A stretch of 64,000 nucleotides of DNA, from the sequence record MN850580.1, one strand, 5' to 3'. The position numbers were made by a program, and so were the translations under genes. Origin of the DNA: Escherichia phage momo. The stretch's first letter is position 1; each line of letters opens with the position of its first letter. The notes under the pieces are model-generated. The model saw only the letters and a list, made by a program, of their open reading frames with translations. It did no database searches and had not been told where the DNA came from. This document shows positions 9,114 to 30,474 of this stretch, one piece after another.

Positions 9114-9152
9114 GAACTCTTTAAGGGAGGGGCTAAATAGCCCTCTCAAAAT

Positions 9153-9230
9153 TGGCGGTTACGAAGGGATTTGAACCCTCATCATCTCCCGTGACAGGGG
9201 AGTATTTTAACCAAATTAAACTACATAACC
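9153..9230 (-). tRNA. tRNA-Asp(GUC): tRNA-Asp (anticodon GUC)
   Basis: Perfect anticodon stem CUCCC/GGGAG, loop CUGUCAC. Confidence 0.65.
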
Positions 9231-9235
9231 TTTAT

Positions 9236-9323
9236 TGGTGTGCCGTGTAGGAGTCGAACCTACCGAGTCTCAATGACAAGGGATTTACAGTCCCCACCGC
9301 TACCATCTACGGGATAACGACAC
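9236..9323 (-). tRNA. tRNA-Tyr(GUA): tRNA-Tyr (anticodon GUA), long variable arm
   Basis: 85-nt body; anticodon loop CUGUAAA. Confidence 0.6.
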
Positions 9324-9331
9324 ATTTAATT

Positions 9332-9408
9332 TGGCGGTTAGTCAGGGATTCGAACCCTGTGCCATTCGCTTAACAGGCGACCGCACATACCTTATGTGCT
9401 TCCTAACC
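9332..9408 (-). tRNA. tRNA-Asn(GUU): tRNA-Asn (anticodon GUU)
   Basis: Anticodon loop CUGUUAA; T-arm CAGGG/CCCUG. Confidence 0.55.
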
Positions 9409-9418
9409 TTAATACATT

Positions 9419-9481
9419 GCCAGACCGTGTTTTTTCTTTTATCCGCAAAAAAGTATTTTGTTGCTGAATACGGTCTTCTGC
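9419..9481 (-). repeat. tRNA-spacer hairpin repeat (CAGACCGT...ACGGTCTTCTG)
   Basis: Terminal inverted repeat, immediately 3' of tRNA in transcript orientation. Confidence 0.4.
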
Positions 9482-9486
9482 AAAAT

Positions 9487-9563
9487 TGGAGGCGGGTGCA
9501 GGAGTCGAACCTGCCGATACCATGCTAATGAGACATGTGAGACGCCCTTTCTCTATACCCGCA
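9487..9563 (-). tRNA. tRNA-Met/Ile2(CAU): tRNA with anticodon CAU (initiator Met, elongator Met or lysidine Ile2)
   Basis: Anticodon stem CAUGU/GCAUG, loop CUCAUUA; possible 1-72 mismatch. Confidence 0.5.
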
Positions 9564-9574
9564 ATTCTTAATGA

Positions 9575-9648
9575 CCAGACCAAATCTCTTCTTTGTCCGA
9601 TTTACCTTCAGATGAATAAGATTAAGTTTGCTGTAATTGGTCTTCTGT
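9575..9648 (-). repeat. tRNA-spacer hairpin repeat (CCAGACCAA...TTGGTCTTCTG)
   Basis: Terminal inverted repeat as in the other spacers. Confidence 0.4.
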
Positions 9649-9654
9649 CAAAAC

Positions 9655-9732
9655 TGGCGTTCCAGAAGGGATTTGAACCCTCAGATATCCACTTTGAAAG
9701 AGTGGTGACTATACCATTTTGTCTACTGGAAC
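9655..9732 (-). tRNA. tRNA-Glu(UUC): tRNA-Glu (anticodon UUC)
   Basis: Perfect acceptor GUUCCAG/CUGGAAC; anticodon loop CUUUCAA. Confidence 0.65.
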
Positions 9733-9739
9733 ATTAATT

Positions 9740-9816
9740 TGGTCTCTGTTGGAGGACTTGAACCTCCGGCCTTACCGCCCCAAACGGAACGCTCTACCAA
9801 TCTGAGCTAAACAGAG
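9740..9816 (-). tRNA. tRNA-Pro(UGG): tRNA-Pro (anticodon UGG)
   Basis: Perfect acceptor CUCUGUU/AACAGAG; D-arm GCUC/GAGC; anticodon loop UUUGGGG. Confidence 0.65.
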
Positions 9817-9981: not shown

Positions 9982-11397
9982 TTACCAGATATAACGGTCA
10001 ATCATTACTGCTTTGAGCATTACACTGATTGGGTCAAACTTCTCACCACCAAGCAGAGCTTTTAAAGTGGCTGGAGAGAACCCTGATACCATTGCTACAC
10101 CGTTATCCTTAACAGATACTTCGCAAGTACCATTACGGTTTGCTAAGTACCAGAATACCAGTTGTGGCATCTCATATCCAGCTTTTTTGTACTTACTCTG
10201 AATTGCTTCAAAGTTTGTACGACCGTTAGCTCCATCAACCTGATTGAACTCCATATCGGAGAAGATGATAAGCTTACTTGGCATATCTTTCTGAGTCAAG
10301 TTGTTTCTTTTACCTGTTTCAAGAATGCGGTCAAAAGCTGCTTGTAAGTTAGTTGAGCCATATTCAACGTGTCGCATCACCTGACGATGACGGTTTCGTA
10401 AATCACCACTCAGTTCGATGAAGTGAGGGTTTGTTGAATAAACCATTAACTCATTCTTAAAGCAACCTGTATTGCGTTCTGCTACATACAAGGCAAGTGA
10501 TACACCAATATCCAGAGCAGTAATGGAGCCAAAATTCACCCAAGACATTGAACTTGATACATCAGACATACACAAGATGTTTTCACCTTCTGCCATCCAG
10601 TTTGGTAGTGCTTTCCACTGCTCATTAGCAACATCTGCATTACCATACTTGACAGATTTAATCACATCGTATGGGTAAACAGCACCAGCGTTAATCTTAG
10701 TCTCACCTTTTGATAAGGACTCGATGTAAGATTTGTAACGCTCTCCATCTTTACGGTTAAACAGTTTTTGGTAACGTGCAGCAGCAAGTGAAGGAATCTT
10801 ACTGTAGTCAATCTTACCAAACTCGTTAGCAGAGATTTTTTGCTCAACTGTATCAGATAGTGCAGACAACAGTGTGCGGTACTCTTTCTCACTCAAGTTG
10901 GCAAACTTGCAGAAACGTTTTACAAACTGCTTATGACGTGGTTTGACTCGTGGTAACCACTTAGCTGCCAAACCTGCTGTTGCAGGGTCTAGTAATGCTG
11001 CTTCTAAATGCTTGAAGGCATCTGTCTCGAAACGAGTACCCACGAAGATTTTGAAATCATCAAAGCGACCAAGCTCTGCAATCTTATCCATAATGCGAAG
11101 AACCTGTGTAGACTCTAGAACTTTATCTTCAATCGCTTGAAGTAAAACAGTTCGGAAAGCTTTACGCTCACCCATACCTTCTCGTACATCTCGCATATGC
11201 AGTAAAATACGAACTGCAACATCAACATCCTCATGCAAAGCTTTGTAGAACAAGTCTGGTAAGATTTCTACATTGCTACGGCTAGAACCAGCAGCTTTGT
11301 AAAAGTCCACAAGAGCAGACATTGATGAAGTATGGTTTACAGCACCATTTTCAGTTCGACCTGCATGAAGGTGCACATGTTTAAATAATTCGCTCAT
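9982..11397 (-). CDS. vWA-domain protein with helical N-terminal region (possibly Ro60/TROVE-like or DUF2828-like)
   Basis: 471 aa; C-terminal MIDAS-like motif SDVSSSM followed by GSTN and FSDME; alpha-helical N-terminal ~270 aa. Confidence 0.5.
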   Translation of the reverse strand: MSELFKHVHLHAGRTENGAVNHTSSMSALVDFYKAAGSSRSNVEILPDLFYKALHEDVDVAVRILLHMRDVREGMGERKAFRTVLLQAIEDKVLESTQVLRIMDKIAELGRFDDFKIFVGTRFETDAFKHLEAALLDPATAGLAAKWLPRVKPRHKQFVKRFCKFANLSEKEYRTLLSALSDTVEQKISANEFGKIDYSKIPSLAAARYQKLFNRKDGERYKSYIESLSKGETKINAGAVYPYDVIKSVKYGNADVANEQWKALPNWMAEGENILCMSDVSSSMSWVNFGSITALDIGVSLALYVAERNTGCFKNELMVYSTNPHFIELSGDLRNRHRQVMRHVEYGSTNLQAAFDRILETGKRNNLTQKDMPSKLIIFSDMEFNQVDGANGRTNFEAIQSKYKKAGYEMPQLVFWYLANRNGTCEVSVKDNGVAMVSGFSPATLKALLGGEKFDPISVMLKAVMIDRYIW

Positions 11398-11478: not shown

Positions 11479-11850
11479 TTATTTTTTGAGAGTCGCTACA
11501 GCAGAGAACGTTGGTTTGTTATCTGTCTGTTGTTGACCACCACTATCAGGAGTCTTCTTAGTGTCTGCTGCAAGTGCTTTCATCTCACCTGCTGAGTGAG
11601 TAAAGATAGTTTTACCGACCTCAATCATACTCTTGATGGTTACGTCATCTGTGTTTAACCCGAACTCTGCAAGCTTAGCAGCATCCCTTGTAACAATCGC
11701 TTCAAATAACTTTGCAGCAAACTCAGCAGAATTGTCAATGGTCAGTTGAGCTTTTACAAGTGAGCTTTTGTTGCGAGAGCCTTTTGGTCTTCCAGATGGG
11801 TTTCCAGATTGGCCTTTTTTAAACTGGCCTTTGTTTGTTCTGTTTTTCAT
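11479..11850 (-). CDS. hypothetical protein with basic N-terminal motif
   Basis: 123 aa beginning MKNRTNKGQFKKGQSGNPSGRPKGSRNK. Confidence 0.45.
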   Translation of the reverse strand: MKNRTNKGQFKKGQSGNPSGRPKGSRNKSSLVKAQLTIDNSAEFAAKLFEAIVTRDAAKLAEFGLNTDDVTIKSMIEVGKTIFTHSAGEMKALAADTKKTPDSGGQQQTDNKPTFSAVATLKK

Positions 11851-18031: not shown

Positions 18032-18496
18032 ATGAAAATTAAAGAAGTCGTTCAAAAAGCAATGCTTGACAACTCAACTAAAGATGAAATGTACAAAGAG
18101 ATTTGTGATAAGTTGAATTGTTCAAGACATGCTGCTAAGGCTCTTGTACATTGTTTTATCTGGGAATGCTCAGAGGCTTATATGCAATATGTAGCTTTTG
18201 AAAGTTCTCACTTGCTAGGTGATGTAGAAGCTGGTGATAAGCTAAAAGAGCCTGAGATGAAAACAGTCCCTAGAGTCGGTAATACATACCCTCTTAAAGA
18301 TTTCAAGACTGGAAAGATTGTTGCAAAAGGTGTAGTAGAATCTGTCTATCATGATGGTAAATACTTACTTAAAATATTTGAGTATGACAGCCACTATACG
18401 CACTTATGTGGGATTACATTCTTAGTAACAGAAGAAGACCTTATTAAGCACAACAGCAACAAGTTTGCAGTACCAGCCTACCAAGTTTTACGATAA
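18032..18496 (+). CDS. hypothetical protein
   Basis: 154-aa ORF. Confidence 0.4.
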   Translation: MKIKEVVQKAMLDNSTKDEMYKEICDKLNCSRHAAKALVHCFIWECSEAYMQYVAFESSHLLGDVEAGDKLKEPEMKTVPRVGNTYPLKDFKTGKIVAKGVVESVYHDGKYLLKIFEYDSHYTHLCGITFLVTEEDLIKHNSNKFAVPAYQVLR

Positions 18497-19058
18497 TGTT
18501 GTGATAGCTATGGAAAAAGATAACTTAAAAGAAGTTGAAGGTAACTACCTAGTCCTTGACTGGAGTGATGTTCGTGAAGCACTCTCCGAAGAAAATCTTG
18601 ACTGGTTCCAACAAATTATCTTTGCAGTACGACATACCAGAGAAGTTGAAAATGGTAAAGAGCCACTTGAAGGAATCTTTGTAGAGAAGTCTTATCCGTT
18701 CTATGAAGACACTTTACAGAAAGTTAAAATGTACTTTAAACAGAAGAACCGTAAAGTGGTCACTATGGTATCTCTTGGTGGACAGAGTATGTCTGTGATG
18801 GAAGATATCAACCCTAAGAGACCGAGCAAAGGTGTCTGTATAAAAATCACAGGGCATGAAGAGTATATCTCAGTGGACGATTTTAGTGTGTTCTGTAATG
18901 GTTCTGCTGTCTTTAATGGGTTTCACTATGATATCCGAGTGTACCCAATCAAGGGAGATGATATCATGATGCAGATATTCGATAACAACAATGGATTTAC
19001 TCATTTTTATCAGACAACCAAGTCATCATTAAAAACAGTTCTGGAAACACTGATTTAA
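18465..19058 (+). CDS. hypothetical protein
   Basis: 197-aa ORF; true start may be internal MEKDNLKEV. Confidence 0.4.
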   Translation: MQYQPTKFYDNVVIAMEKDNLKEVEGNYLVLDWSDVREALSEENLDWFQQIIFAVRHTREVENGKEPLEGIFVEKSYPFYEDTLQKVKMYFKQKNRKVVTMVSLGGQSMSVMEDINPKRPSKGVCIKITGHEEYISVDDFSVFCNGSAVFNGFHYDIRVYPIKGDDIMMQIFDNNNGFTHFYQTTKSSLKTVLETLI

Positions 19059-19068
19059 AATATCTTAA

Positions 19069-19100
19069 GAGCCTCCTTAATTGGGGGCTTTTTAATTTTT
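19069..19100 (+). terminator. rho-independent terminator closing plus-strand cluster
   Basis: AGCCTCC-loop-GGGGGCT followed by TTTTTAATTTTT. Confidence 0.5.
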
Positions 19101-19105
19101 ATAAA

Positions 19106-20700
19106 ATTTTATCGGTTGTCCCAACCTCTGGGTCACCATCATATGTGAATAAAATATCTACCCTTCTTAACAACCTTCTTAAGCTTACTCTCTATATATA
19201 GTTATATAGTACTATATAGTATCTTAGTATCTATCTAGTGGTCTTAATAGCCCCTCTGTATAGCCCTTCTAAATAGCCTTCTAAACACTCTTCTAACAAG
19301 CCTTCTTAATAACCTATACAATCACCTTAACCATTCCTCTACACACTCTTAGAAGCTCCTATACACCTCTTAATCTCTATGTCAGCTATGATACCCTCTA
19401 TAGGTGTTCACTAGGTACTACTAAGCCTCTATATAGACTGTTTTAACAAACTTAACAGGAATATCTTCACAGACTTTATCTCACAAGGTCTAACACGGCA
19501 CTAACAAGGTATCTTATAAGCCTGTTTCTACCTGTATTTTTAAAAGACTGTATAGGTAATTATTCAGAATCTTAAAATTTTTATAAAATAGAGCTATCAA
19601 GTCATTTTTTAGGGTCTTTGAAGGAACTGAAAAATATCTGTAGAAGATGTATATCTGCTTGGTAGCCCTTAACAGCCCCCTTACAAGTACTTTGCAAAAT
19701 TTTAAAATATCCTTAACAATCTCTTAACAGTTCTCACACCTTCTTAACAACTCTTCAAAGGTCTTAACAGATTCTTAACAGAACTAACAAGGATGTAACA
19801 GTTTTCTAACAAGTGCTGAATAGGCTTTACAGAATCTTAACAGATGACTAACAAGAGCTAAGTAGTTAAATGTTAAGAGTTATTTTGTTAAGATAATTAA
19901 CAAGTTTCTAACAAGTGTTTAATCTTTTTAACAAGCTATTAACATGGTCACTACTCTTTTCTTATCGTTCCCTTTGCTTCTTAGTGATTCTTTAAACATA
20001 CCTCTTAAAAGCCCTCTATAGCTCCTTGTAAGCTCTTTTAAGTCTCTTCCTAGTATTTACCCCCAACTATACAGACACCTCTTTATAAGGCTTTACAGAA
20101 GCTTTAAAGGCTATGTCAAAGGCTCTTACAAGGCTTTTACATGGTCTTAACAGAGATTTAACAAGGGGCTAACAAGTTGCTAACAAGTGCCTTAAAAGCA
20201 TAACTATGTAGGGTTTGTTAAGAAATTGTTAAGAAAATGTTAAGGGGGCTAGCATTTACGTAACTTTTAAGCTACTTCAAAATAACTTTTAAACTACTTC
20301 AAAATAACTTTATAGCCCCCTTCTTAGATATTCACAAGATAGCTAACGAGATAATAAAGCTTACACCCTTATAAGATTCTTTTAAGTCTCTGGGAAGCTT
20401 TATAAAGGGCTTTTTAGGGTGAGTTAATGCAATCCCTTAAGTTAGGTTGATAAGGCTGTTATAGAGCTTTATAGAGCGTTTAAACGGTTGCCCTTCCCTT
20501 TCGGGTTATGGGCTTATATTTAAGTTGATTTGATAAAAGGCTATAGAGTAGACTATAGAGTTATTGCTTTTTAAGGTCTGATAAGATTCTGGAAAGGAAA
20601 GGGAAAGGGCTGTATAAGGGATTTGATAAGACGTAAAAAAGCCCCTATGAGATAGACTCTATCGAATCTATATGGGAAAGGGGCTGTAAAGGTATCTGGG
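19106..20700. promoter_or_regulatory. 1.6-kb non-coding region dense in short direct repeats; candidate origin / regulatory hub
   Basis: No ORF over 60 aa; more than 20 copies of (T/C)TAACA(G/A)G, TATATAGT repeats at 19195-19245, 21-nt tandem duplication at 20281-20322. Confidence 0.5.
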
Positions 20701-20723
20701 GCTATTTAGCCCCGTTGCGGCGT

Positions 20724-20972
20724 TTAGTTAGTGCCTTTTTTGTCGTAGTACAGGGAGACAATTTTTTCACCCCAGTAGTGGTATGTATAACCCTCTTTGA
20801 GAACTTCCTGTTTTGTTTCTTTCCAGAATTCATCAGAGGGGTTGTAGTCACTGATGGTCTGGCTGATGAGGCCTTTCACCATTTCAAAGGTGTTATCAGT
20901 ACCTACAAGGTCAAATTTAACGTCCAGAGAGTAGAAGCCGAATTCGTTAACAGTTGCGCGGATAGTAGCCAT
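20724..20972 (-). CDS. hypothetical small protein (cassette array)
   Basis: 82-aa ORF directly preceded by conserved leader ending AAACTGGAGATTCTAAAATG. Confidence 0.5.
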   Translation of the reverse strand: MATIRATVNEFGFYSLDVKFDLVGTDNTFEMVKGLISQTISDYNPSDEFWKETKQEVLKEGYTYHYWGEKIVSLYYDKKGTN

Positions 20973-23077: not shown

Positions 23078-23163
23078 TTTTTGAATCTCCAGTTTAGGAT
23101 TTAGTGGTAAAGCTCTTTATCTGGGGCTTACTTTATCGAACTATAAGCCCCTTGTAAAGTACT
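23078..23163 (-). repeat. conserved stem-loop plus leader cassette, variant B
   Basis: GGGGCTTA-13 nt-TAAGCCCC hairpin; minus strand TTTACA-17 nt-TAAAGT promoter-like; leader with SD GGAG. Confidence 0.6.
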
Positions 23164-23367
23164 TTATTTGTTATTTTTGACAACTTTTAAGACTGCAAGA
23201 TACCCTAAGCAATAAGAATCACCGAAGAGAGTCCTACCCATGAAAGAATCCTCTTTGATATCCTTTGTAGTGACAGTTTTTTCTACGCCGTGGGAAAGGA
23301 CTATATCGCCAACTTTGATATCTTTGATGTGTGTAGTTTCAATGTTTAAGCCGTTAATAATAGCCAT
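23164..23367 (-). CDS. hypothetical small protein (cassette array)
   Basis: 67-aa ORF preceded by variant A cassette. Confidence 0.5.
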   Translation of the reverse strand: MAIINGLNIETTHIKDIKVGDIVLSHGVEKTVTTKDIKEDSFMGRTLFGDSYCLGYLAVLKVVKNNK

Positions 23368-23467
23368 TTTAGAATCTCCAGTTTAGGACTTTACTTAGTG
23401 GGGAAGGTCATTCCCTCCCCGTTGATGTGTAATTTAATCTATCTAAAAACCGGTGTCAACAAAATTT
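23368..23467 (-). repeat. conserved stem-loop plus leader cassette, variant A
   Basis: Same hairpin and leader. Confidence 0.6.
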
Positions 23468-23872
23468 TTAGAGTTCTGCATAAATTGCATCACAGACATC
23501 ACGAAAATCGTGATTTGTCAAATTACGTTGTAACCAAGTGGCAAAGAAATCAGCGATTGCAAAATTAGCGTCATACTCGACGGATAGCCATACTTTAACA
23601 GCAAATCGAAACATTTTTAAATCAAGCTCTTTATTCATTATCTTTGATTTGCCTAACATGTCAGCCATTTCATATTGTGCGCCGTCTAGCGTGATACCTG
23701 ATGCAACGTCAGCCAATGATTTTTTTACGTTTTCAACGTCTAAGATAACGCTTTGAATCTTCCCGATAATGTTGTGCAATGTCTCATCAGGCGCTGATGA
23801 CGTGATAACATTAATCCGGTTAACGGTCAAACGTGCTTTTAAGATTGATAATTCACGGTTATTAATAGCCAT
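23468..23872 (-). CDS. hypothetical protein (cassette array)
   Basis: 134-aa ORF preceded by variant B cassette. Confidence 0.5.
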   Translation of the reverse strand: MAINNRELSILKARLTVNRINVITSSAPDETLHNIIGKIQSVILDVENVKKSLADVASGITLDGAQYEMADMLGKSKIMNKELDLKMFRFAVKVWLSVEYDANFAIADFFATWLQRNLTNHDFRDVCDAIYAEL

Positions 23873-23958
23873 TTTTAAGTTCTCCAGTTTAGGATTTAGT
23901 GGTAAAGCTCTTTATCTGGGGCTTACTTTATCGAACTATAAGCCCCCTGTAAAGTACT
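23873..23958 (-). repeat. conserved stem-loop plus leader cassette, variant B
   Basis: Near-identical to 23078-23163. Confidence 0.6.
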
Positions 23959-24231
23959 TTACACTAAATGCAGCTTTTTACCTTTTACTATGATGTAACT
24001 CGATGCGCTATTGCTTTGCACATCCTGATAAATTCTGCGCAAACGGCCTTCGTAGTATACTTTCCAACTGGTTGGAATCTTTTTCCCGTATCCTGTAGCA
24101 GTTTTTTGTAGTCCTGCAAGTTGCCAATCTAAGATATGTTGTTCGGCTTGTAAATCTTCGAAGTGCATTACACCGTTCACATAGTGACGAATGGTTACGT
24201 TTAAGGTGCGACCGTTGTTAGTAGTGTACAT
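23959..24231 (-). CDS. hypothetical protein (cassette array)
   Basis: 90-aa ORF preceded by cassette. Confidence 0.5.
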   Translation of the reverse strand: MYTTNNGRTLNVTIRHYVNGVMHFEDLQAEQHILDWQLAGLQKTATGYGKKIPTSWKVYYEGRLRRIYQDVQSNSASSYIIVKGKKLHLV

Positions 24232-24318
24232 TTTGAATCTCCTAGTTTAAGGACTTTACTTAGTGGGGAGGTTATTACCTCCCGTTGATTAGTAATTTAC
24301 TTGTTTTAAAAACCAAAA
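24232..24318 (-). repeat. conserved stem-loop plus leader cassette, variant A, diverged
   Basis: GGGGAGGTTATTACCTCCC hairpin and leader. Confidence 0.55.
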
Positions 24319-24651
24319 TCAAGAGGAATTTTTTCGTTTGCTCAATTCTTGAACAATTACAGCGTAGTAGTCTTTTAAGTCACTGACATTTAAAGCATTT
24401 ATCAGAGAATTATAATCATCGACTAACTGAAAATCATCTTTGAAAATGTCGCTGATTTGATAAGTTTTTGATTGAAATCTGAAGCTCATTTCTAACCGTT
24501 TTATTTGTTCATCACTTAAACGCTCCAGAAAGCTCATTACAAGGCTATTATTGACCTGTTGCGTGATTGCCTTATTTGCTAGATTATAGGCTTTATATGC
24601 CTTATATAGCGCGAAAATGGCAAGGATTGCGGTGATGCCAGTCATTAACAT
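24319..24651 (-). CDS. hypothetical membrane protein
   Basis: 110 aa with N-terminal hydrophobic segment; overlaps upstream gene by 7 nt. Confidence 0.45.
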   Translation of the reverse strand: MLMTGITAILAIFALYKAYKAYNLANKAITQQVNNSLVMSFLERLSDEQIKRLEMSFRFQSKTYQISDIFKDDFQLVDDYNSLINALNVSDLKDYYAVIVQELSKRKNSS

Positions 24652-24941
24652 GGTGTTTCCTCTTTACGTGATACTTTGCCATTTACAGTTATCTCATAGG
24701 ATTCTAATAAGTCACTTTTAGACTTTACTGGACTTTTAAAAGTATCATCATAAATATTTACTTGCAATACAGGTTTTTTATACTCCCTGCAACTATTCCA
24801 TAAGCAAATCACTACGCGACGGCCTTTTATTTTGCCGTGCAACCATTCCATAACATCATGATTATTTCTTGATGTCTCGATAAAATCAATTTTGTTGAGT
24901 AATTTGCTCAGATTTTCACGCACTTGATTTGATAATTTCAT
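24645..24941 (-). CDS. hypothetical protein (cassette array)
   Basis: 98-aa ORF preceded by cassette. Confidence 0.5.
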   Translation of the reverse strand: MKLSNQVRENLSKLLNKIDFIETSRNNHDVMEWLHGKIKGRRVVICLWNSCREYKKPVLQVNIYDDTFKSPVKSKSDLLESYEITVNGKVSRKEETPC

Positions 24942-25033
24942 TTTAGAATCTCCTAGTTTAAGGGCTTTATTTGATAAATCTCTTTATCTGGGGCTATCTT
25001 ACCAGCTTGATAACCCCGTGTAAAGAAATCTAT
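24942..25033 (-). repeat. conserved stem-loop plus leader cassette, variant B, diverged
   Basis: GGGGCTATCTTACCAGCTTGATAACCCC hairpin and leader. Confidence 0.55.
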
Positions 25034-25546
25034 TTAGTTCTTAAAGATATTCATCACTGAGTCTTTCAACGATTCCAAACGTTCTAATACTTCAGTTTCT
25101 GCGTCTGAATTGTTCACCTCTTCTTTTAGTCTATCTTCTAAATCCTCACCGTCACTATAGCACCAATCGAAAGCGTAACCAATATAAAAGCTGTCTAAAA
25201 CCGTTTTACCGTTTGCATCTACAACTTTCGCGGCAATGTTATACTCTGAAGCTTCTAAATCTCTTTCTAGTTCTTTTTGTAAGCTGATGTAAGCCTCTTT
25301 TGATGGATTTTCCCGGCCTTGTTTTGCATAGTCACTTGAAAGCTGTTTAAGGCTGTAATGCAAAGGGATTGCATATTTAAATGCATTATGCTGATAGTTA
25401 GGATTTTTAACAGTCACGCCGCCTTGATGGTCATCTGTAAACTTCCAATTATCAAGGTTATGGCTTGCTTCGTAGCAATTTACCGCTTCATAGATAATGG
25501 TGAATTTTTCTTTTACAACTTCAAAAGTAGCGTCTACAGTTTTCAT
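25034..25546 (-). CDS. hypothetical acidic protein (cassette array)
   Basis: 170-aa ORF preceded by cassette. Confidence 0.5.
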   Translation of the reverse strand: MKTVDATFEVVKEKFTIIYEAVNCYEASHNLDNWKFTDDHQGGVTVKNPNYQHNAFKYAIPLHYSLKQLSSDYAKQGRENPSKEAYISLQKELERDLEASEYNIAAKVVDANGKTVLDSFYIGYAFDWCYSDGEDLEDRLKEEVNNSDAETEVLERLESLKDSVMNIFKN

Positions 25547-25634
25547 TTTTGAATCTCCAGTTTAGGATTTAGTGGTAAAGCTCTTTATCTGGGGCTTAAG
25601 ATATCAACTTTTAAGCCCCTTGTAAAGTACTTTA
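25547..25634 (-). repeat. conserved stem-loop plus leader cassette, variant B
   Basis: GGGGCTTAAGATATCAACTTTTAAGCCCC hairpin and leader. Confidence 0.6.
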
Positions 25635-25892
25635 TCAGATTAAATTGCCAGTTAATGATAAGTGCATTTTATAGCCTTTTTTGGTAAAGACGTTCACTTT
25701 ACCGAGTGATTTTACACCTTTAAAAAGGTTGTTTGAACTGCGTTTTAAGGTTAGTTGTTTATCAGCCTTTACTCCCCATCTTACAGCGGATTGTTTTCCG
25801 TTGTCAACCACTTTCCCGCATAACTTTTTAGCCATAACGCGAGCGTCATCACGAGTTTTTGCAGCAATTACAACGTTTTTGATAATAGCCAT
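25635..25892 (-). CDS. hypothetical basic protein (cassette array)
   Basis: Start placed at MAIIKNVV directly after cassette; ORF track start is an upstream alternative. Confidence 0.45.
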   Translation of the reverse strand: MAIIKNVVIAAKTRDDARVMAKKLCGKVVDNGKQSAVRWGVKADKQLTLKRSSNNLFKGVKSLGKVNVFTKKGYKMHLSLTGNLI

Positions 25893-25981
25893 TTTTAAGT
25901 TCTCCAATTTAGGATTTAGTGGTAAAGCTCTTTATCTGGGGCTTACTTTATCGAACTATAAGCCCCTTGTAAAGTACTTTA
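25893..25981 (-). repeat. conserved stem-loop plus leader cassette, variant B
   Basis: Near-identical to 23078-23163. Confidence 0.6.
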
Positions 25982-26362
25982 TCAGTTAATTTTGAAAATT
26001 GTCACATAGCCGTCACTGCCGATTATTTGAGACACTCCAGCTTTTTCCACTGAATAGTCCATATTTTCAAGATGATAAACAGCATCATCATAACCATATG
26101 CGCCACCCTGATAACGTCTCTTATCGCATCTTATCAGGTTTTTACCACGTCCTGCAAGTGCATTCAGTACAGCTTTTTCACTTGATAGCGTACCATCTAA
26201 CATGGTTGCCGTGTAATGGTTGATTTTATTCCCGTTAATATCATACTTAAAATTGAATGCGTGAATAACAATCAATTTGCCGTTAAATTTTTCATCAAGT
26301 GACTTCTCCAGTGCGTTGCGGAAGTTGTCTTTGTTGATGAATTTCGGTGCACGATAAGCCAT
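25982..26362 (-). CDS. hypothetical protein (cassette array)
   Basis: 126-aa ORF preceded by cassette. Confidence 0.5.
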   Translation of the reverse strand: MAYRAPKFINKDNFRNALEKSLDEKFNGKLIVIHAFNFKYDINGNKINHYTATMLDGTLSSEKAVLNALAGRGKNLIRCDKRRYQGGAYGYDDAVYHLENMDYSVEKAGVSQIIGSDGYVTIFKIN

Positions 26363-26450
26363 TTTTGAATCTCCTAGTTTAAGGTTAATGTAGTAAAGCT
26401 CTTTATCTGGGGCTTACTTTATCGAACTATAAGCCCCTTGTAAAGTACTT
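26363..26450 (-). repeat. conserved stem-loop plus leader cassette, variant B
   Basis: Near-identical hairpin and leader. Confidence 0.6.
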
Positions 26451-26672
26451 TTATCTATCGTAATAGTAAACCGCTGTCTGTTTTATATGTCGCTTTGTAT
26501 TCTTCGTAAGGTAGCAATTAGAGTTGATTGCCGTTTCTACATAGTTGCAATAATCAGCTTCTGATATTCTACGCCATGCGCCGCACACTTGCATGTAAAA
26601 ACGTTTTACCTTTGTATTAACGTTGGTTGTAACCATCAATTCACGGCTGTAAATCATTATTTCGCGCTCCAT
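26451..26672 (-). CDS. hypothetical small protein
   Basis: 73-aa ORF overlapping upstream gene by 16 nt. Confidence 0.4.
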   Translation of the reverse strand: MEREIMIYSRELMVTTNVNTKVKRFYMQVCGAWRRISEADYCNYVETAINSNCYLTKNTKRHIKQTAVYYYDR

Positions 26673-26845
26673 TTCTCAAAGAGTTCAGCAGGGAAACGTT
26701 CGCTATAACCTTTTAAGGAAAAAGTGTTATCTTTGTGGATAGCTTCCACCTGATAAACCTTATAAGAACGTATAGTTAGCATTTTGTAAGAGTATTCGTG
26801 CTTAATGTTAACCTCATCGCCAACTTTAATTTTTCTTGATGCCAT
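26657..26845 (-). CDS. hypothetical small protein (first gene of cassette array)
   Basis: 62-aa ORF preceded by leader CTAAACTGGAGAATCTAAGAAATG. Confidence 0.45.
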   Translation of the reverse strand: MASRKIKVGDEVNIKHEYSYKMLTIRSYKVYQVEAIHKDNTFSLKGYSERFPAELFEKWSAK

Positions 26846-26890
26846 TTCTTAGATTCTCCAGTTTAGGAAGTGGGCTTGATTGCCCGTCTG
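26846..26890 (-). repeat. leader half of cassette, no hairpin
   Basis: Leader motif with SD GGAG only. Confidence 0.45.
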
Positions 26891-27096
26891 ATGCAGATAT
26901 TAGATAACCATACTCAAAGAGTCAATAGGAATTTTAAAAATATTTTTTTTTTTTTTGCAAAGATTGTAATGAAACGGGTGCGCGCGACTACCATAAAACA
27001 GAACTACAATCAAGAATTATTTTTCAATCCGCTACAAATTTTTCTGTTGACTTTTATTTCCAGATGTGGTAGCCTTGTGAGAAATGGCGACATCCC

Positions 27097-27295
27097 CACC
27101 TGCACCCACCTACCTGCACAATTCTAAAATGATTTTTCTTGCCCGACCTGATTTTTCTCTGCACGTTTTGAAAATGAAAAAGCTCTTTGGAGATTACCTG
27201 CACAGTTTGAAAATGAATTTTCCCTTTGGAGTTCAAAATTTTCTCTACAGATTTCTCTACAGAACTCTACCTGCACAATCCTGAAATGAAAAAGC
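27097..27295. repeat. direct repeats (A/T)CCTGCACA...GAAAATGA, 5-6 copies
   Basis: Copies at about 27098, 27114, 27168, 27196, 27269; adjacent poly-T run at 26944-26958. Confidence 0.5.
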
Positions 27296-27362
27296 CCCCC
27301 TTACCTGAAAAATTTACCAGATAAGAAAGGCTTAGTCTATTGTGAATACTATACAGAATTTC

Positions 27363-28148
27363 TTAGTTCTTTGCGTCTAAGAAGGTTACTTCCGGTGAAG
27401 AGAAAACCGTCTCGATATCCTCATCATTTCTTGCATAGATGTAAGCATCTGCATCACTGCCAAATGTTACTGCAATTCTGTGATTGCTCTTCGACAGGTG
27501 GGTAACTAGAGCGTTACTTAGAGACATCTTCTCAACCGGAGGGTTACTTTGATGTATCTTACCTTTTCTTCGTCTGAAGAGGGTAACTGTATCATCTGTG
27601 AACATTACTACACCTGCAAAGTATTCTGGTTCACAGTAGTTATTCCAACCTGAGCGTAACTTGTGGTACATCTCTCCTTCGTAGACATACAGATAAACAT
27701 CTACACTCTTCATCACCTGATTAATGATAACTGTGACGGCTTGAGGGTCTAGCCCACCGATACCTGCACCAATCATAGGTAGACCAACTTTCTTCAACTG
27801 ATTGACTTCACAGTATCTGTTAAGCTGTTTCAAAGATGATTCTAAAGCACTGTATCGGGCATCTTTACCAGTCTTAAGCTGAGTGTAAAGGTTAGCTATT
27901 CGACCTTGTTTTAAACGTGCTACAGAGAAATTACCCAGTAAATTTTCACAGGGTTTGTGTCCTATACCACCTGCATATAGATAAACTTCTGTATCGGTCT
28001 CATATGCTTTTGGGTAAAGTTTAGAAATCTTGTCAGCGATACCTGCACCCATTAAATTCATACAGTTGCAACCGTGACCGATGATGTCAAACTTACCTTT
28101 ATCAAATGCGGCAAAGATATCACCATTGATTATTTTTACAATACCCAT
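27363..28148 (-). CDS. putative macro-domain-like protein (ADP-ribose binding/processing) with C-terminal extension
   Basis: N-terminal INGDIF...DIIGHGCNCMNLMGAGIA resembles the macro-domain N(A)AN and GGGV(A) motifs; assignment tentative. Confidence 0.35.
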   Translation of the reverse strand: MGIVKIINGDIFAAFDKGKFDIIGHGCNCMNLMGAGIADKISKLYPKAYETDTEVYLYAGGIGHKPCENLLGNFSVARLKQGRIANLYTQLKTGKDARYSALESSLKQLNRYCEVNQLKKVGLPMIGAGIGGLDPQAVTVIINQVMKSVDVYLYVYEGEMYHKLRSGWNNYCEPEYFAGVVMFTDDTVTLFRRRKGKIHQSNPPVEKMSLSNALVTHLSKSNHRIAVTFGSDADAYIYARNDEDIETVFSSPEVTFLDAKN

Positions 28149-28349
28149 TTAACATCTCTCCCAAGATTCTTTATCTTCTGAAGGTTTTACACGTTGTCCT
28201 TCGTGGTCTACCCAGATACATCCACAACCTTCACAGATTACTGGCATTGCATAGCCAGCTTTAAAGTCATCTTCAGTGATAAGACCTTTTAAGTCACCTG
28301 TATCACGTCCGAACATTTCGATAGAACAGTCTTTGCAGAAGTCAGCCAT
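28149..28349 (-). CDS. hypothetical Cys-rich small protein
   Basis: Start set at MADFCKDCSIEMF; C-terminal CEGCGC cluster. Confidence 0.35.
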   Translation of the reverse strand: MADFCKDCSIEMFGRDTGDLKGLITEDDFKAGYAMPVICEGCGCIWVDHEGQRVKPSEDKESWERC

Positions 28350-28569
28350 GAATAATTGCCTCTTGAATGATGATGCCTTTACCACAACGACTTTTAAAGT
28401 CTTCCAACGGTTGGGAGATGAAGCCGCGCAAGCAATCACTAAATACTAAGTTTTTCCTGTAAGCTATCACAAAGTTTGTTGTAAACGGGATGACTTCATT
28501 TCTTCCAATGAATACTGCTGACCGGATGAGTTTCCGTGTCTTTTTATCTCTGGCTAGAATTACTCTCAT
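28342..28569 (-). CDS. hypothetical protein
   Basis: 75-aa ORF filling gap, overlaps both neighbours. Confidence 0.25.
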   Translation of the reverse strand: MRVILARDKKTRKLIRSAVFIGRNEVIPFTTNFVIAYRKNLVFSDCLRGFISQPLEDFKSRCGKGIIIQEAIIHG

Positions 28570-28909
28570 AATTTACCTTCTCAGTTAGCTCATATAAATC
28601 AACATGCTCAATACTATCAATGTTGATATCAATCTTTTTGAAACGTTCCATCACTTCATTGTCAGTCATCCATATCAGACACCAATGATTGTGGATGGAT
28701 TCTTCAAGAAGGTCAACACAATCTTTAAAAGTTTTTGTATCACTTCTTGTTCCTACTACTGCGATTGTTCCATATAGCCACTTACCATTGCCATAGGTTA
28801 CCTGTGCTACACCAACTTCTTTATCGTTCTCGTAGTAAACGGCTACAAAGTCTCTTCCATTAATCTGCATTTGTAAGTTCCTCTGTTGGTAATTCACCAT
28901 TTTCAGCAA
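28544..28909 (-). CDS. hypothetical protein
   Basis: 121-aa ORF. Confidence 0.4.
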   Translation of the reverse strand: MLKMVNYQQRNLQMQINGRDFVAVYYENDKEVGVAQVTYGNGKWLYGTIAVVGTRSDTKTFKDCVDLLEESIHNHWCLIWMTDNEVMERFKKIDINIDSIEHVDLYELTEKVNYESNSSQR

Positions 28910-29174
28910 AGTATTGAAGGTACGGCAACAGTTCTTTTACCTGTTCTTGATTGAGTTTCATTCTTTGGTTACCTACAAAATCTTTGCCTACTAATGCTGG
29001 GATATCAAGTGTTTTCCAGCCACCATCTAGGTACTGAACAGAGACCTCTTTAGCACCTAACCAGATACATGGTTCATATGATGAACTCTCTTGTAAAGTA
29101 CAAATTTCCCCTTTAGCATCTTTAAATTCTGCATAAGAAAATCCACGATTTGTTGGCTGGAATTGCATAATCAT
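28860..29174 (-). CDS. hypothetical protein
   Basis: 104-aa ORF. Confidence 0.4.
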   Translation of the reverse strand: MIMQFQPTNRGFSYAEFKDAKGEICTLQESSSYEPCIWLGAKEVSVQYLDGGWKTLDIPALVGKDFVGNQRMKLNQEQVKELLPYLQYFAENGELPTEELTNAD

Positions 29175-29440
29175 TTCCTCGTTTTAAGAACTGCTAAGAT
29201 TTCTTTAGAGTCTGGTAAGAACCATGTGTAGTGATTCTCTTTGATTTCTGGATGAGTGTCAACCTTTATTTTGCACTCTTTACCAACATGCTTAAGCTGT
29301 GCTGTGACACCTTGCATAAAGATATGACACATCACGTTGTCCATAATGGTTGGTGAGAAATCAACACGCATATAAGTTTCTTTTGGTCGTGGTAGTAGTA
29401 AGTACCCTTCTACATAGAAAGTGTCTTCATTCTCTGTCAT
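29171..29440 (-). CDS. hypothetical protein
   Basis: 89-aa ORF with 4-nt start/stop overlap. Confidence 0.4.
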   Translation of the reverse strand: MTENEDTFYVEGYLLLPRPKETYMRVDFSPTIMDNVMCHIFMQGVTAQLKHVGKECKIKVDTHPEIKENHYTWFLPDSKEILAVLKTRK

Positions 29441-29706
29441 TGCTGTTTGTTTCCTAATAAAATCATATCAATAAGGTTATTAGCTTTGATTGTGCACTGG
29501 TAAAAACCATCACGATAAAACTCAAGGGCTGCTGCCACATTACTACCAGTATTACCTTTGACAGTGAATCTTGACTCTTCTTGAGTGTACTTGTCACTCT
29601 CACTTACTTGGGAGTTTTTGAATGTACTGTTCACTTTGTTCGTTGAACACCCTGACATAATTATCAGTAACACAAACATTATAAAACTCTGGCTTAGTCT
29701 TTTCAT
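29437..29706 (-). CDS. putative o-spanin (outer-membrane lipoprotein, Rz1-like)
   Basis: Signal peptide with lipobox LIIMSGC; starts inside 3' end of preceding gene in another frame. Confidence 0.5.
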   Translation of the reverse strand: MKRLSQSFIMFVLLIIMSGCSTNKVNSTFKNSQVSESDKYTQEESRFTVKGNTGSNVAAALEFYRDGFYQCTIKANNLIDMILLGNKQQ

Positions 29707-29947
29707 ATGTTAGTACCTCTTTTGTGTGCTTATTCTTAGCAAGCACGTCTTTCAAATCATTTTTGTAATTGGTGCTGAGTGTGGCTAAACCTTCCTGATA
29801 AGCATCTTTAGCAACACTTATTAGTTTCTCATTATTTAGCTCAGCTTCAGCAACTTGGTAGTCTCTGTAAGAGTATCCTCCCCAGACACCTGCCCCAACT
29901 AAGAAAACAATTATGAAAGTAGCTTGACAGAACTCTTTAAATGTCAT
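29600..29947 (-). CDS. putative i-spanin (Rz-like)
   Basis: N-terminal transmembrane helix then charged periplasmic domain; 3' end overlaps the lipoprotein gene. Confidence 0.5.
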   Translation of the reverse strand: MTFKEFCQATFIIVFLVGAGVWGGYSYRDYQVAEAELNNEKLISVAKDAYQEGLATLSTNYKNDLKDVLAKNKHTKEVLTYEKTKPEFYNVCVTDNYVRVFNEQSEQYIQKLPSK

Positions 29948-29963
29948 TTAACAATCTCCTGAA

Positions 29964-29987
29964 ATGAAAAAGGCTCCAGAAGGAGCC
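29964..29987 (-). terminator. rho-independent terminator / attenuator
   Basis: Minus strand GGCTCC-TTCT-GGAGCC followed by TTTTTC. Confidence 0.5.
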
Positions 29988-29999
29988 TGTATCTTAACC

Positions 30000-30464
30000 T
30001 TAACCGAGGACTTTAGCAAGGACATTTGCAGCCATCGAAGAAGCTTTTGCAGCAGCAGCTACCCCAGCTTTGACAGTGCTATCCTTGATAGCAGATACCG
30101 TTGCAGCATCAGTAAAGAGATAAGTAGTTGTTTTAGAACCACTTGTAAAGGAAAGCATGAGAGCAGTTTCCAGATTGAAAGAGCGATACGGAGCACCTTC
30201 TTTAACGATACCTTCAGCACCTAATTCTGAAGCCATCCCCATATCATAGATAGTCATCAGGTTTTCTTTGTGTGCAGTCGTTGAACCAGCACCTTTGACG
30301 TGTTTCTTAACATTTAAAAGAGCACGATACTCCCGAATGTTACCGTCTGCTTTTACATTGACAGCACGGAAGATTTTACCCTCAAAGTTGCTCTTGATAA
30401 TGTTACGAACTACTTCAGATTTGTTTGCTGTAACGTCCAGTGCTACCGTGATAATGTTGTTCAT
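30000..30464 (-). CDS. hypothetical protein
   Basis: 154-aa ORF, Ala-rich C-terminus. Confidence 0.4.
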   Translation of the reverse strand: MNNIITVALDVTANKSEVVRNIIKSNFEGKIFRAVNVKADGNIREYRALLNVKKHVKGAGSTTAHKENLMTIYDMGMASELGAEGIVKEGAPYRSFNLETALMLSFTSGSKTTTYLFTDAATVSAIKDSTVKAGVAAAAKASSMAANVLAKVLG

Positions 30465-30474
30465 AAGTTTTCTC

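What the first reader, a model, noticed from the sequence alone, without database searches (positions are those of the whole stretch)
19106..20700. 1.6-kb non-coding region with more than 20 short direct repeats: candidate replication origin or regulatory hub
No credible ORF. Dense copies of (T/C)TAACA(G/A)G (e.g. 19730-19860, 20150-20190), a TATATAGT repeat block at 19195-19245, a 21-nt tandem duplication at 20281-20322, and repeated TATAGAGC at 20440-20470. It sits between the convergent ends of the plus-strand cluster and the minus-strand cassette array. Iteron-like repeats plus AT-rich blocks are typical of origins or multi-site regulator binding regions.
Basis: seen in the sequence. Interest (0 to 1): 0.55.

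Follow-up and report, generated by a model that had tools for sequence, protein, structure and literature searches.

The report
Phage genome ends, not an origin
The repeat-filled 1.6-kb gap is where the two ends of a Felix O1-type phage chromosome meet: a 589-bp terminal repeat, already known for this genus, packed with a short motif once per DNA helical turn, probably marking where the packaging machinery cuts.

Summary
Window 19059-20723 has no ORF of 60 aa or more, lies between convergent gene clusters, and is packed with short repeats. TAACA occurs 31 times (18.9/kb against 2.8/kb elsewhere), and 13 of 30 spacings are exactly 11 nt.

The window is a Felixounavirus (Felix O1-like myovirus). 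The central 589 bp (19661-20249) is the genus's direct terminal repeat (DTR), collapsed to one copy in a circularised assembly. Four GenBank records carry identical copies at both record ends, and all map to exactly these borders. Published Bal31/run-off sequencing and PhageTerm work give DTRs of 608 and 581 bp.

24 of the 31 TAACA copies lie inside the DTR. Both borders sit in sequence blocks that are invariant across three genera. The motif layout recurs in Mooglevirus, Suspvirus and Kolesnikvirus. The non-coding DNA is more conserved than the genes beside it.

The most likely function is concatemer-junction recognition and cutting for packaging. This is analogous, not homologous, to the CCTAAAG arrays at the T7 ends. 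Nothing specifically supports a replication origin: transcription converges here, DnaA boxes do not cluster, and no neighbouring gene looks like an initiator.

The DTR is already known. The phased, conserved motif architecture appears undescribed. Interest is moderate to low.

The parts
19067..19092 (+). Intrinsic terminator that closes the + strand gene cluster.
   Evidence: Stem of 10 pairs followed by a T-run. It is conserved in the relatives and annotated as a terminator in phage Moogle.
19093..19660 (.). Unique non-coding DNA next to the right physical end (R-flank). It holds ATTTTTATAAAAT twice (19095, 19577), a TATATAG block (19193-19239), a 12-nt CCTTCTAA array (19242-19315) and CTCTATA copies (TATAGAG on the - strand at 19190, 19396, 19427). 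The top strand is C-rich.
   Evidence: Blocks invariant across three genera lie at 19194-19220, 19418-19446, 19493-19527 and 19571-19593. Self-similarity peaks at lag 12, z = 5.2.
19644..19678 (.). Conserved block holding one DTR border. The cut is inferred between 19660 and 19661: ...TGTATATCTGCT|TGGTAGCCCTTAACA.
   Evidence: The block is invariant in seven sequences from Felixounavirus, Mooglevirus and Suspvirus, and TGTATATCTGCTTAGT is also present in phiEa21-4. The ends of the Ro111lw, I14.1, SPJ41 and Pr103Blw terminal repeats map to 19661.
19661..20249 (.). Direct terminal repeat (589 bp here), present once because the assembly collapsed the two copies.
   Evidence: Four records carry 100% identical copies at both record ends (613, 581, 613 and 581 bp), and all map to 19661-20249. 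The DTR annotated in UAB_69 maps to 19659-20251. Experimental and PhageTerm DTRs are published for the genus (PMC4837284, PMC8303462). The sequence is unique within the window.
19714..19944 (+). TAACA array I: 16 copies of (C/T)T(T)AACA(A/G)(G), 14 on + and 2 on - (19871, 19886). Spacings are mostly 11, 20 or 31 nt.
   Evidence: The positional layout is reproduced in Felix O1, Moogle, Sf14 and SUSP2.
20148..20185 (+). TAACA array II: four copies spaced exactly 11 nt apart.
   Evidence: Copy number varies between phages in 11- or 22-nt steps.
20216..20242 (-). TAACA array III: three inverted copies (TGTTAAG) 11 nt apart, ending 7 nt from the DTR border. It forms an inverted repeat with 19702-19729.
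   Evidence: (repeat I1: 28 nt, 86% complementary). Conserved in all relatives.
20242..20261 (.). Conserved block holding the other DTR border. The cut is inferred between 20249 and 20250: ...TGTTAAGGGGGC|TAGCATTTACGT.
   Evidence: Nearly invariant across three genera. The first 40 nt of the Pr103Blw genome are identical to the reverse complement of the window from 20249 inward.
20250..20634 (.). Unique non-coding DNA next to the left physical end (L-flank). It holds a strain-specific 22-nt tandem duplication (20261-20311), a conserved block (20354-20391), two composite TGATAAG...TATAGAG...TATAGAG units (20447-20481, 20525-20566) and a conserved hairpin (20490-20513). The top strand is G-rich.
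   Evidence: TATAGAG is on the + strand here and on the - strand in the R-flank, so the arrangement is inverted about the DTR.
20635..20684 (-). Intrinsic terminator that closes the - strand gene cluster (GCCCCT...AGGGGC plus a T-run on the - strand). Its loop is enlarged by a roughly 30-nt palindromic insert.
   Evidence: Read from the sequence. In Felix O1 and others the same stem has a short loop. Annotated as a terminator in Moogle.

Best explanation
The region is the place where the two physical ends of a Felix O1-type phage chromosome meet in a circularised assembly, or in the replicating concatemer.

Layout:
- 19661-20249 is the direct terminal repeat (DTR). In virion DNA it is present at both ends.
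- 19093-19660 and 20250-20634 are the unique non-coding stretches just inside the right and left ends.
- Intrinsic terminators on both sides stop the converging transcription units before they reach this DNA.

How it most likely works (inferred): the TAACA motifs sit once per helical turn, with three inverted copies against one border and one copy 9 nt from the other. Together with the TATAGAG, TTAGAAG and GATAAG motifs in the flanks, they are multi-site binding arrays. A sequence-specific component of the packaging machinery, or a partner protein, assembles on them at the concatemer junction. That complex places the two cuts in the invariant border blocks, and the single junction copy of the repeat is then duplicated so that each packaged genome carries it at both ends, as in T7-type DTR phages.

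What is shown and what is inferred:
- Shown: the identity and borders of the DTR, the phasing of the motifs and their conservation.
- Inferred: which protein binds, and that binding serves cutting and packaging rather than another end-related function.

My confidence that this is the DTR and genome-end region is about 0.95. My confidence in the packaging-recognition role of the arrays is about 0.5.
For: Identity:
- The region matches 256 phage records, nearly all Felixounavirus or Mooglevirus; 200 of them hold at least 80% of it.
- It corresponds to the 1.6-kb gap between Felix O1 ORF23 and ORF24.

Ends:
- Many records start or stop inside the region.
- Ro111lw, I14.1, SPJ41 and Pr103Blw carry identical repeats of 613, 581, 613 and 581 bp at both record ends, all mapping to window 19661-20249.
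- The DTR annotated in UAB_69 maps to 19659-20251.
- The DTR of UAB_Phi87 (608 bp) was shown by Bal31 digestion and run-off sequencing (PMC4837284). That of Pr103Blw (581 bp) came from PhageTerm (PMC8303462).

Site specificity:
- Both borders lie in blocks invariant across Felixounavirus, Mooglevirus and Suspvirus, and the blocks are recognisable in Kolesnikvirus phiEa21-4.

Motif arrays:
- 24 of the 31 TAACA copies lie inside the DTR, and 13 of the 30 spacings in the region are exactly 11 nt. The lag-11 self-similarity has z = 11.2.
- 81.7% of motif columns are invariant against 53.5% of other DTR columns; none of 588 circular shifts reaches this.
- The layout recurs in four genera.
- Among 27 unique DTRs the indels are mostly 11 nt (20 cases) or 21-23 nt (16 cases), so the phase is kept.

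Selection: the non-coding DNA is 76-84% identical to Moogle and SUSP2, against 55-73% for the adjacent genes.

Symmetry about the junction:
- TAACA copies are inverted at the two borders.
- TATAGAG is on the - strand to the left and on the + strand to the right.
- GC skew is mirrored across the region.

Specificity: the motif is at background level elsewhere in the window.

Analogy: the left end of T7 carries CCTAAAG 11 times, with a 13-nt period, in and next to its terminal repeat.
Against: - No protein that binds the motif has been identified. No small terminase subunit is annotated in this phage group (PMC3185647), and none was found here with PHROGs, Pfam or NCBIfam.
- The one candidate I tested, the DUF5681 protein at 11479-11850(-), gave a low-confidence model and no significant structural match.
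- In T7, most single loci at the genome ends are dispensable in a knockout screen (bioRxiv 10.1101/2024.10.10.617714). Comparable arrays may therefore be redundant, or may serve something other than packaging.
- The ends of this particular isolate were not measured. They are inferred from 91% identity to Pr103Blw's DTR and from near-identical border sequences.
- Arrays stretching over 1.6 kb are far more than known terminase recognition sites need.
Confidence: 0.6

Rival explanations
1. Telomere-like end complex. The phased arrays are bound by a phage or host DNA-binding protein that is not part of the terminase. It would coat both terminal repeats after injection to protect the ends from exonucleases, hold the two ends together, or promote the end-to-end recombination that builds concatemers.
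For: - The arrays lie mostly inside the DTR, so they are present at both virion ends.
- Both ends read inward as ...CCCTTAACA within the first 14 nt.
- The subterminal TATAGAG motifs and the strand composition are symmetric with respect to the ends.
- An 11-nt period with 20 to 28 sites suits a cooperative filament or wrapped complex.
- The single-stranded DTR is predicted to pair its own two ends (z = -3.0).
Against: No candidate protein is known. The invariant blocks exactly at the cut sites are more simply read as nuclease recognition. Nothing here separates this reading from the packaging one, and the two are not mutually exclusive.
Confidence: 0.2
2. Replication origin. The short direct repeats are iterons for an initiator protein, and the AT-rich blocks are the unwinding element.
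For: - Phased direct repeats plus AT-rich stretches are present (GC 25-26% at 19500-19650 and 25% at 19850-19949).
- From my own knowledge: terminal repeats can prime recombination-dependent replication, and T7 has secondary origins near its ends.
Against: - Genes converge on the region, so forks leaving it would meet transcription head-on. GC skew only tracks gene orientation.
- Only one relaxed DnaA box is present, at 19144-19152, and the count for the whole window is below chance.
- The adjacent genes match no Pfam family and only PHROGs families of unknown function, so no initiator gene is evident next to the repeats.
- The repeats coincide precisely with the mapped terminal repeat.
Confidence: 0.1
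3. Transcriptional control region or non-coding RNA locus. The repeats would be operators or promoters, and the region would be transcribed.
For: - Two TTGATA-N17/18-TATAG elements lie in the L-flank, at 20447 and 20530. The window as a whole has 3 matches against 0.36 expected.
- The hairpin at 20490-20513 keeps its stem in SUSP2 through a change on both sides.
Against: - Sigma-70-like sites are not enriched, 6 found against 5.8 expected, and the best score only 9 of 12.
- No Rfam family reaches significance; the best E-value is 0.14, on the flanking terminator.
- The elements differ from the repeated cassette promoters TTTACA-17-TAAAGT.
- The motif is absent from other intergenic regions.
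- Terminators insulate both sides.
Confidence: 0.07
4. Functionless repeat expansion by replication slippage in a gene-free spacer, or an assembly artefact.
For: Copy number changes in whole 11-nt units between phages, which is typical of slippage.
Against: - The region is present in 256 independent records.
- It is more conserved than the flanking genes across genera.
- Motif columns are preferentially invariant.
- The layout is kept even in an Erwinia phage with a different GC content.
Confidence: 0.03

Closest known systems
Direct terminal repeat of Felixounaviruses (UAB_Phi87, 608 bp, shown experimentally; Pr103Blw, 581 bp, by PhageTerm; annotated in UAB_69)
   Same: It is the homologous sequence. 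The Pr103Blw DTR aligns to window 19661-20249 at 91% identity, and its first 40 nt are identical to the window. The position between the ORF23-like and ORF24-like genes is the same.
   Different: Nothing essential differs. The length differs by whole 11- or 22-nt repeat units (567-658 bp among 27 relatives). The papers I could search give the length of the DTR but do not describe its internal motif arrays or border blocks.
Phage T7 concatemer junction: a 160-bp terminal repeat with CCTAAAG short-repeat arrays (named SRL and SRR by Dunn and Studier 1983, from my own knowledge)
   Same: A short exact DTR with a 7-8-nt motif repeated many times in and beside it. In T7, CCTAAAG occurs 11 times and TAAAG 17 times in the first 500 bp, with a regular period. 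The concatemer holds one repeat copy, which is duplicated at packaging (PMC10438801).
   Different: - There is no sequence similarity.
- The period is 13 nt in T7 and 11 nt here.
- The T7 arrays lie mostly outside the repeat; here they lie mostly inside.
- The T7 arrays are all direct; here they are inverted at one border.
- T7 is transcribed inward from its left end; here genes converge on both ends.
- The function of the T7 arrays is itself unsettled, and most single end loci are dispensable.
Terminase recognition sites built from phased short repeats: the P1 pac hexamers, the SPP1 pacL/pacR boxes and the lambda cosB R sites (from my own knowledge)
   Same: Several copies of a short motif, about one helical turn apart, flank a specific cleavage point.
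   Different: Those sites are roughly 100-250 bp with 3 to 7 repeats and have a known small terminase subunit. Here about 30 motif copies spread over 1.6 kb, and no small subunit has been identified.
Iteron origins and plasmid centromeres with 11-bp repeats, such as the lambda ori iterons and R1 parC (from my own knowledge)
   Same: Arrays of direct repeats phased with the helix, which bind one protein cooperatively.
   Different: There is no adjacent initiator or partition gene, no cluster of DnaA boxes, and the gene context is convergent. The arrays coincide with the genome ends.

Membership tests
Short exact direct terminal repeat (T7-type DTR packaging) | The same sequence is present at both ends of virion DNA. 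| tested here: met
   Met for close relatives. Four records have 100% identical repeats of 581-613 bp at both record ends, mapping to window 19661-20249. Bal31 digestion and run-off sequencing showed it for UAB_Phi87 (PMC4837284). For this isolate it is inferred by homology.
Short exact direct terminal repeat (T7-type DTR packaging) | The ends are fixed and non-permuted, at a conserved sequence. | tested here: met
   Independent records share the same borders to within 2 nt. The borders lie in blocks invariant across three genera.
Short exact direct terminal repeat (T7-type DTR packaging) | Doubled read coverage and read-start pile-ups at the borders in this isolate. | not testable with these tools
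   No sequencing reads are available for the window.
Short exact direct terminal repeat (T7-type DTR packaging) | The large terminase subunit groups with those of DTR-type phages. | not tested
   TerL is present at 2853-4469(-) with the Terminase_6N and Terminase_6C domains. The clustering with DTR phages is reported in PMC4837284 and was not recomputed here.
Iteron-type replication origin | Iterons lie next to or inside the gene of their initiator protein. | tested here: not met
   The flanking genes (18465-19058 on +, 20724-20972 on -, 18032-18496 on +) match no Pfam family and only PHROGs families of unknown function.
Iteron-type replication origin | A cluster of DnaA boxes and an AT-rich unwinding element. 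| tested here: inconclusive
   Only one relaxed DnaA box is present (19144-19152). AT-rich 100-nt blocks do exist, with GC of 25-26%.
Iteron-type replication origin | Gene orientation and strand skew diverge from the site. | tested here: not met
   Genes converge on the site, and the skew follows gene orientation.
Iteron-type replication origin | Replication initiates there. | not testable with these tools
   This needs marker-frequency data or 2D gels.
T7-type short-repeat arrays at the concatemer junction | A 7-8-nt motif repeated many times at a regular period in or beside the terminal repeat. | tested here: met
   Window. T7 checked directly.
T7-type short-repeat arrays at the concatemer junction | Sequence homology to the T7 arrays. 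| tested here: not met
   The motifs differ (TAACA against CCTAAAG) and so do the periods (11 against 13 nt). This is an analogue, not a member.
Terminase recognition site with phased repeats | The repeats flank the cleavage point. | tested here: met
   Three TGTTAAG copies end 7 nt from the 20249|20250 border, and a TTAACA starts 9 nt from the 19660|19661 border.
Terminase recognition site with phased repeats | A small terminase or other recognition subunit is encoded by the phage. | tested here: inconclusive
   None was found with PHROGs, Pfam or NCBIfam. The model of the DUF5681 candidate has pLDDT 67 and no significant PDB match; small terminases appear only at E above 2.
Known non-coding RNA family (Rfam) | A match at or above the family's gathering score. 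| tested here: not met
   The best match is Phe_leader at 26 bits against a gathering score of 55, and it lies on the flanking terminator.

The most novel reading that the evidence does not exclude
The 11-nt phased TAACA arrays, with the inverted TATAGAG and TTAGAAG arrays in the flanks, are the binding platform of a still unidentified sequence-specific protein of the Ounavirinae. This could be a new kind of small terminase or recognition subunit, in a phage group where none has been found. Or it could be a telomere-like end-binding protein that coats and pairs the two terminal repeats. The conserved motif would then be a direct handle for fishing that protein out.
Probability: 0.2. Interest if true: 0.55.

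Novelty: new member of a known kind. Interest (0 to 1): 0.35.

Why it matters
- For annotation, the region should be labelled as the terminal repeat plus subterminal non-coding DNA. Genomes of this group should be opened at GCCCCCTTAACA... rather than at rIIA or at an arbitrary point. Most of the 256 matching records do not do this.
- For phage engineering and phage therapy (Felix O1, Bas63 and relatives), the border blocks and arrays are probably cis-acting elements that must be kept.
- Biologically, the motif architecture is conserved across four genera, and this subfamily has no recognised small terminase. The motif therefore offers a concrete bait for finding the recognition protein and for testing what short-repeat arrays at phage ends do. 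That question has been open since such arrays were seen in T7.
- The finding does not bear on locating the replication origin.

Tried and rejected
- Origin signals: the DnaA-box search gave one relaxed hit in the region and a window count below chance. GC skew at 1-kb and 100-nt scales only mirrors gene orientation.
- Promoters and RNA: the sigma-70 scan showed no enrichment, and the Rfam search at E up to 1 gave nothing credible. ATTTTTATAAAAT, present twice in the region, does not recur at other genes, so it is not a general phage promoter.
- A poorly chosen degenerate pattern (CTTWWMWAG) missed the region and instead picked up the repeated cassette promoters.
- Small-terminase candidate: the 66-aa protein upstream of TerL and the DUF5681 protein have no PDB sequence relatives and no informative family names. 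The AlphaFold model of the DUF5681 protein is a low-confidence helical hairpin (pLDDT 67), and Foldseek against the PDB gave no match below E = 2. I therefore make no claim about it.
- The copy of the UAB_Phi87 record in the collection is opened in the tRNA region, so it could not be used to map the experimentally determined ends directly.
- The literature searches found no description of the internal repeats.
- Folding the single-stranded DTR gave an end-to-end panhandle (z = -3.0). That is suggestive only, and I did not test it for covariation.
Full report
**Observation**

Between the stop of the + strand ORF at 19058 and the - strand ORF ending at 20724, the only ORF of 30 aa or more is a 31-aa TTG ORF. 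Shuffles give 14.0 +/- 4.4, and none of 100 reaches 29. Twelve of the matches lie at 19293-20187, all on the + strand.

The core pentamer TAACA occurs 31 times in 19059-20700, or 18.9/kb against 2.8/kb in the rest of the window. Thirteen of the 30 successive spacings are exactly 11 nt. CTAACAAG occurs 8 times against 0.01 expected from the rest of the window. Tandem Repeats Finder reports several period-11 arrays, the TATATAG block at 19193-19239, a 12-nt array at 19260-19315, and a 22-nt duplication (not 21-nt) at 20261-20311. Self-identity at lag 11 inside 19661-20249 is 46.9% (z = 11.2). The flanks peak at lags 11-12 (z = 4-5), and coding controls do not.

**What the window is**

The region matches 256 phage records, and 200 of them hold at least 80% of it. 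Nearly all are Felixounavirus or Mooglevirus. It corresponds, in reverse orientation, to the 1.6-kb gap between ORF23 (+, ends 12305) and ORF24 (-, from 13928) of Felix O1. The annotators of the Danish wastewater phages marked only 'repeat_region' features there.

**The key result: these are the genome ends**

In a spread listing, many records begin or end inside the region, at query positions of about 547-585 or 1138-1144. Ro111lw, I14.1 and SPJ41 carry 100% identical sequences of 613, 581 and 613 bp at both record ends. All three map to window 19661-20249. Pr103Blw annotates a 581-bp 'short direct terminal repeat' at both ends. The two copies are identical and map to 20249..19661, and the first 40 nt of that genome equal the reverse complement of the window from 20249 inward. 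The DTR annotated inside the UAB_69 record maps to 19659-20251.

The literature agrees:
- Felix O1 was inferred to have short terminal repeats (PMC3185647).
- UAB_Phi87 has a 608-bp DTR, shown by Bal31 digestion and run-off sequencing (PMC4837284).
- Pr103Blw has a 581-bp DTR by PhageTerm (PMC8303462).

Short-read assemblies commonly collapse a DTR to one copy and place it in the middle of a contig (PMC10438801). That is the situation in this window, where the DTR sequence occurs only once.

**Anatomy**

From left to right the region contains:
- Terminator at 19067-19092 (+).
- R-flank, 19093-19660.
- Border block, 19644-19678, with the cut between 19660 and 19661.
- DTR, 19661-20249.
- Border block, 20242-20261, with the cut between 20249 and 20250.
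- L-flank, 20250-20634.
- Terminator at 20635-20684 (-).

Of the 31 TAACA copies, 24 lie inside the DTR:
- one copy 9 nt from the left border;
- 16 in array I (19714-19944);
- four at exact 11-nt spacing in array II (20148-20185);
- three inverted at 11-nt spacing in array III (20216-20242), ending 7 nt from the right border.

Arrays I and III form a 28-nt inverted repeat that is 86% complementary. Read inward, the two virion ends are 5'-GCCCCCTTAACA... and 5'-GGTAGCCCTTAACA....

The flanks carry other motifs. Eight of the 12 TATAGAG copies in the window lie in this region. They are on the - strand at 19190, 19396, 19427 and 20014, and on the + strand at 20460, 20470, 20542 and 20554. TTAGAAG(G) is on the - strand at 19266, 19278 and 19290, and GATAAG is on the + strand in the L-flank. 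The top strand is C-rich in the R-flank and G-rich in the L-flank. The junction therefore has an overall mirror symmetry around the direct repeat.

**Conservation**

Seven sequences from Felixounavirus, Mooglevirus and Suspvirus align throughout. The TAACA positions are reproduced almost copy for copy. Within the DTR, 81.7% of motif columns are invariant against 53.5% of the others, and none of 588 circular shifts of the motif mask reaches that value. Both border blocks are among the few stretches of 20 nt or more that are nearly invariant.

The non-coding DNA is 76-84% identical to Moogle and SUSP2 at aligned positions. The adjacent genes are 55-73% identical.

A scan of IMG/VR with the left-border 16-mer gave 78 loci, of which about 30 are Ounavirinae and the rest chance matches. 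Among 27 unique DTRs, lengths are 567-658 bp and TAACA counts are 21-28. Apart from 1-nt events, indels are mostly 11 nt (20 cases) or 21-23 nt (16 cases), so the helical phase is preserved.

In Erwinia phage phiEa21-4 (Kolesnikvirus), the syntenic gap has TCTTAACA 9 times against 0.07 expected. It also has recognisable border blocks (TGTATATCTGCTTAGT...) and a TTAGAAG array in the L-flank.

**Mechanism**

Three things are shown: the DTR identity, the fixed borders in conserved sequence, and the phased and selectively conserved motif arrays. What follows is inferred.

In DTR phages the concatemer holds one repeat copy per junction. Terminase cuts at specific sites, and the repeat is duplicated (PMC10438801). 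The invariant border blocks are the likely cut and recognition sites. The arrays, which occur nowhere else in the window, are the likely assembly platform for the recognition component.

No such component is known. Felix O1 has only a TerL homologue (PMC3185647), and I found no small subunit. I tested the DUF5681 protein at 11479-11850(-). It has a basic N-terminal arm with invariant GNPxGRPxG residues and a predicted helical hairpin, but the result was inconclusive.

A non-terminase end-binding or end-pairing protein fits the same anatomy, so I keep it as the main rival. The predicted end-to-end pairing of the single-stranded DTR (z = -3.0) is compatible with either reading.

**Rivals**

- Origin. 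The region is convergent, not divergent. The skew follows transcription. There is one relaxed DnaA box, and no initiator-like neighbour was found. An origin is not excluded, but nothing specifically supports it.
- Regulatory hub or ncRNA. Promoter-like sites are at chance level and there is no Rfam match. Two TTGATA-N17/18-TATAG elements remain unexplained. They differ from the repeated TTTACA-17-TAAAGT cassette promoters.
- Neutral slippage or artefact. This is excluded by the conservation pattern.

**Comparison with known systems**

This is a member of the known Felixounavirus DTR by homology. It works most like the T7 concatemer junction. I confirmed that the T7 left end carries CCTAAAG 11 times, with a 13-nt period, in and next to its terminal repeat. 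There is no homology, and the placement, period and orientation all differ. [quoted passage not shown] Comparable redundancy is likely here. Resemblances to the P1, SPP1 and lambda terminase sites, to iterons and to R1 parC rest on my own knowledge and were not tested.

**Novelty and verdict**

The DTR is already known, and four of the records examined here annotate or carry it. In the searchable literature I found no description of three things: the phased TAACA architecture, the inverted flank motifs, and the border blocks conserved across the subfamily. I rate the finding as a new member of a known kind. Its interest is moderate to low. Its practical value is for annotation, for engineering, and for finding the missing recognition protein.

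Noticed in passing
window 20647-20678; also L014 (Moogle) at the position equivalent to about 19645 and near its left terminator, L004 (UAB_69) and L015 (Sf14) in the L-flank, and L016 (SUSP2) in the same terminator: A palindromic segment of about 25-30 nt (GAGATAGACTCTATCGAATCTATAT and variants such as GATTCGATAGAATCTATCTCAT) sits at different positions in different phages. In the window it enlarges the loop of the - strand terminator. It behaves like a small mobile insertion.
   Followed up: partly
L004 (UAB_69) and L016 (SUSP2), at the equivalent of window 19861; SUSP2 also at the equivalent of about 20490: A 20-nt hairpin-like insert (GGATTGGTAACAATACCAAT) is present in some relatives and absent from the window. 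It is a second small insertion type within the terminal region.
   Followed up: no
window 20490-20513: The hairpin GCCCTTCCCTTTCGGGTTATGGGC is conserved. In SUSP2 the outer stem changes on both sides (GCCA...TGGC) and keeps the pairing. It is followed by TTATATTT on the + strand. Its function is unknown.
   Followed up: partly
window 23130-40983, - strand (for example 23158, 23953, 25973, 26444): Repeated promoter-like modules TTTACA-17-TAAAGT (containing CTTTACAAG) recur between the small genes of the - strand cassette array. They probably correspond to the 39- and 57-bp intergenic direct repeats reported for Felix O1.
   Followed up: partly
window 4899-9816 (-) and 9982-11397 (-): Twenty-five tRNA genes lie in one array. 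Next to it is a 471-aa protein matching DUF2828 and DUF7788 and the PHROGs 'RNA-binding protein' family. For Bas63 the equivalent protein was reported to resemble Ro60, with a possible link to Y-RNA-like tRNA genes (bioRxiv 10.1101/2024.10.10.617714).
   Followed up: no
window 11479-11850 (-): A 123-aa DUF5681 protein is the first gene of the leftward unit that leads to the tRNAs and TerL. It has a basic N-terminal arm with invariant K12, G13, N17, G20, R21, P22, G24 and N27, and a predicted helical hairpin. Its function is unknown.
   Followed up: partly
GenBank PP892526 (L007, L008): The record 'Escherichia phage vB_EcoM_I14.1' carries a Tequintavirus (Demerecviridae) taxonomy line. Its ends are about 81-91% identical to this Felixounavirus region and it has the Felixounavirus DTR, so the taxonomy label is probably wrong.
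   Followed up: partly
(database hits): One 'Staphylococcus' phage record matches the region. A partial DUF5681 protein 100% identical to the window's is also filed under Staphylococcus aureus (P0022). These look like contamination or mislabelling in public data.
   Followed up: no
The other sequences diverge strongly in this stretch, which makes it the least conserved part of the region.
   Followed up: yes
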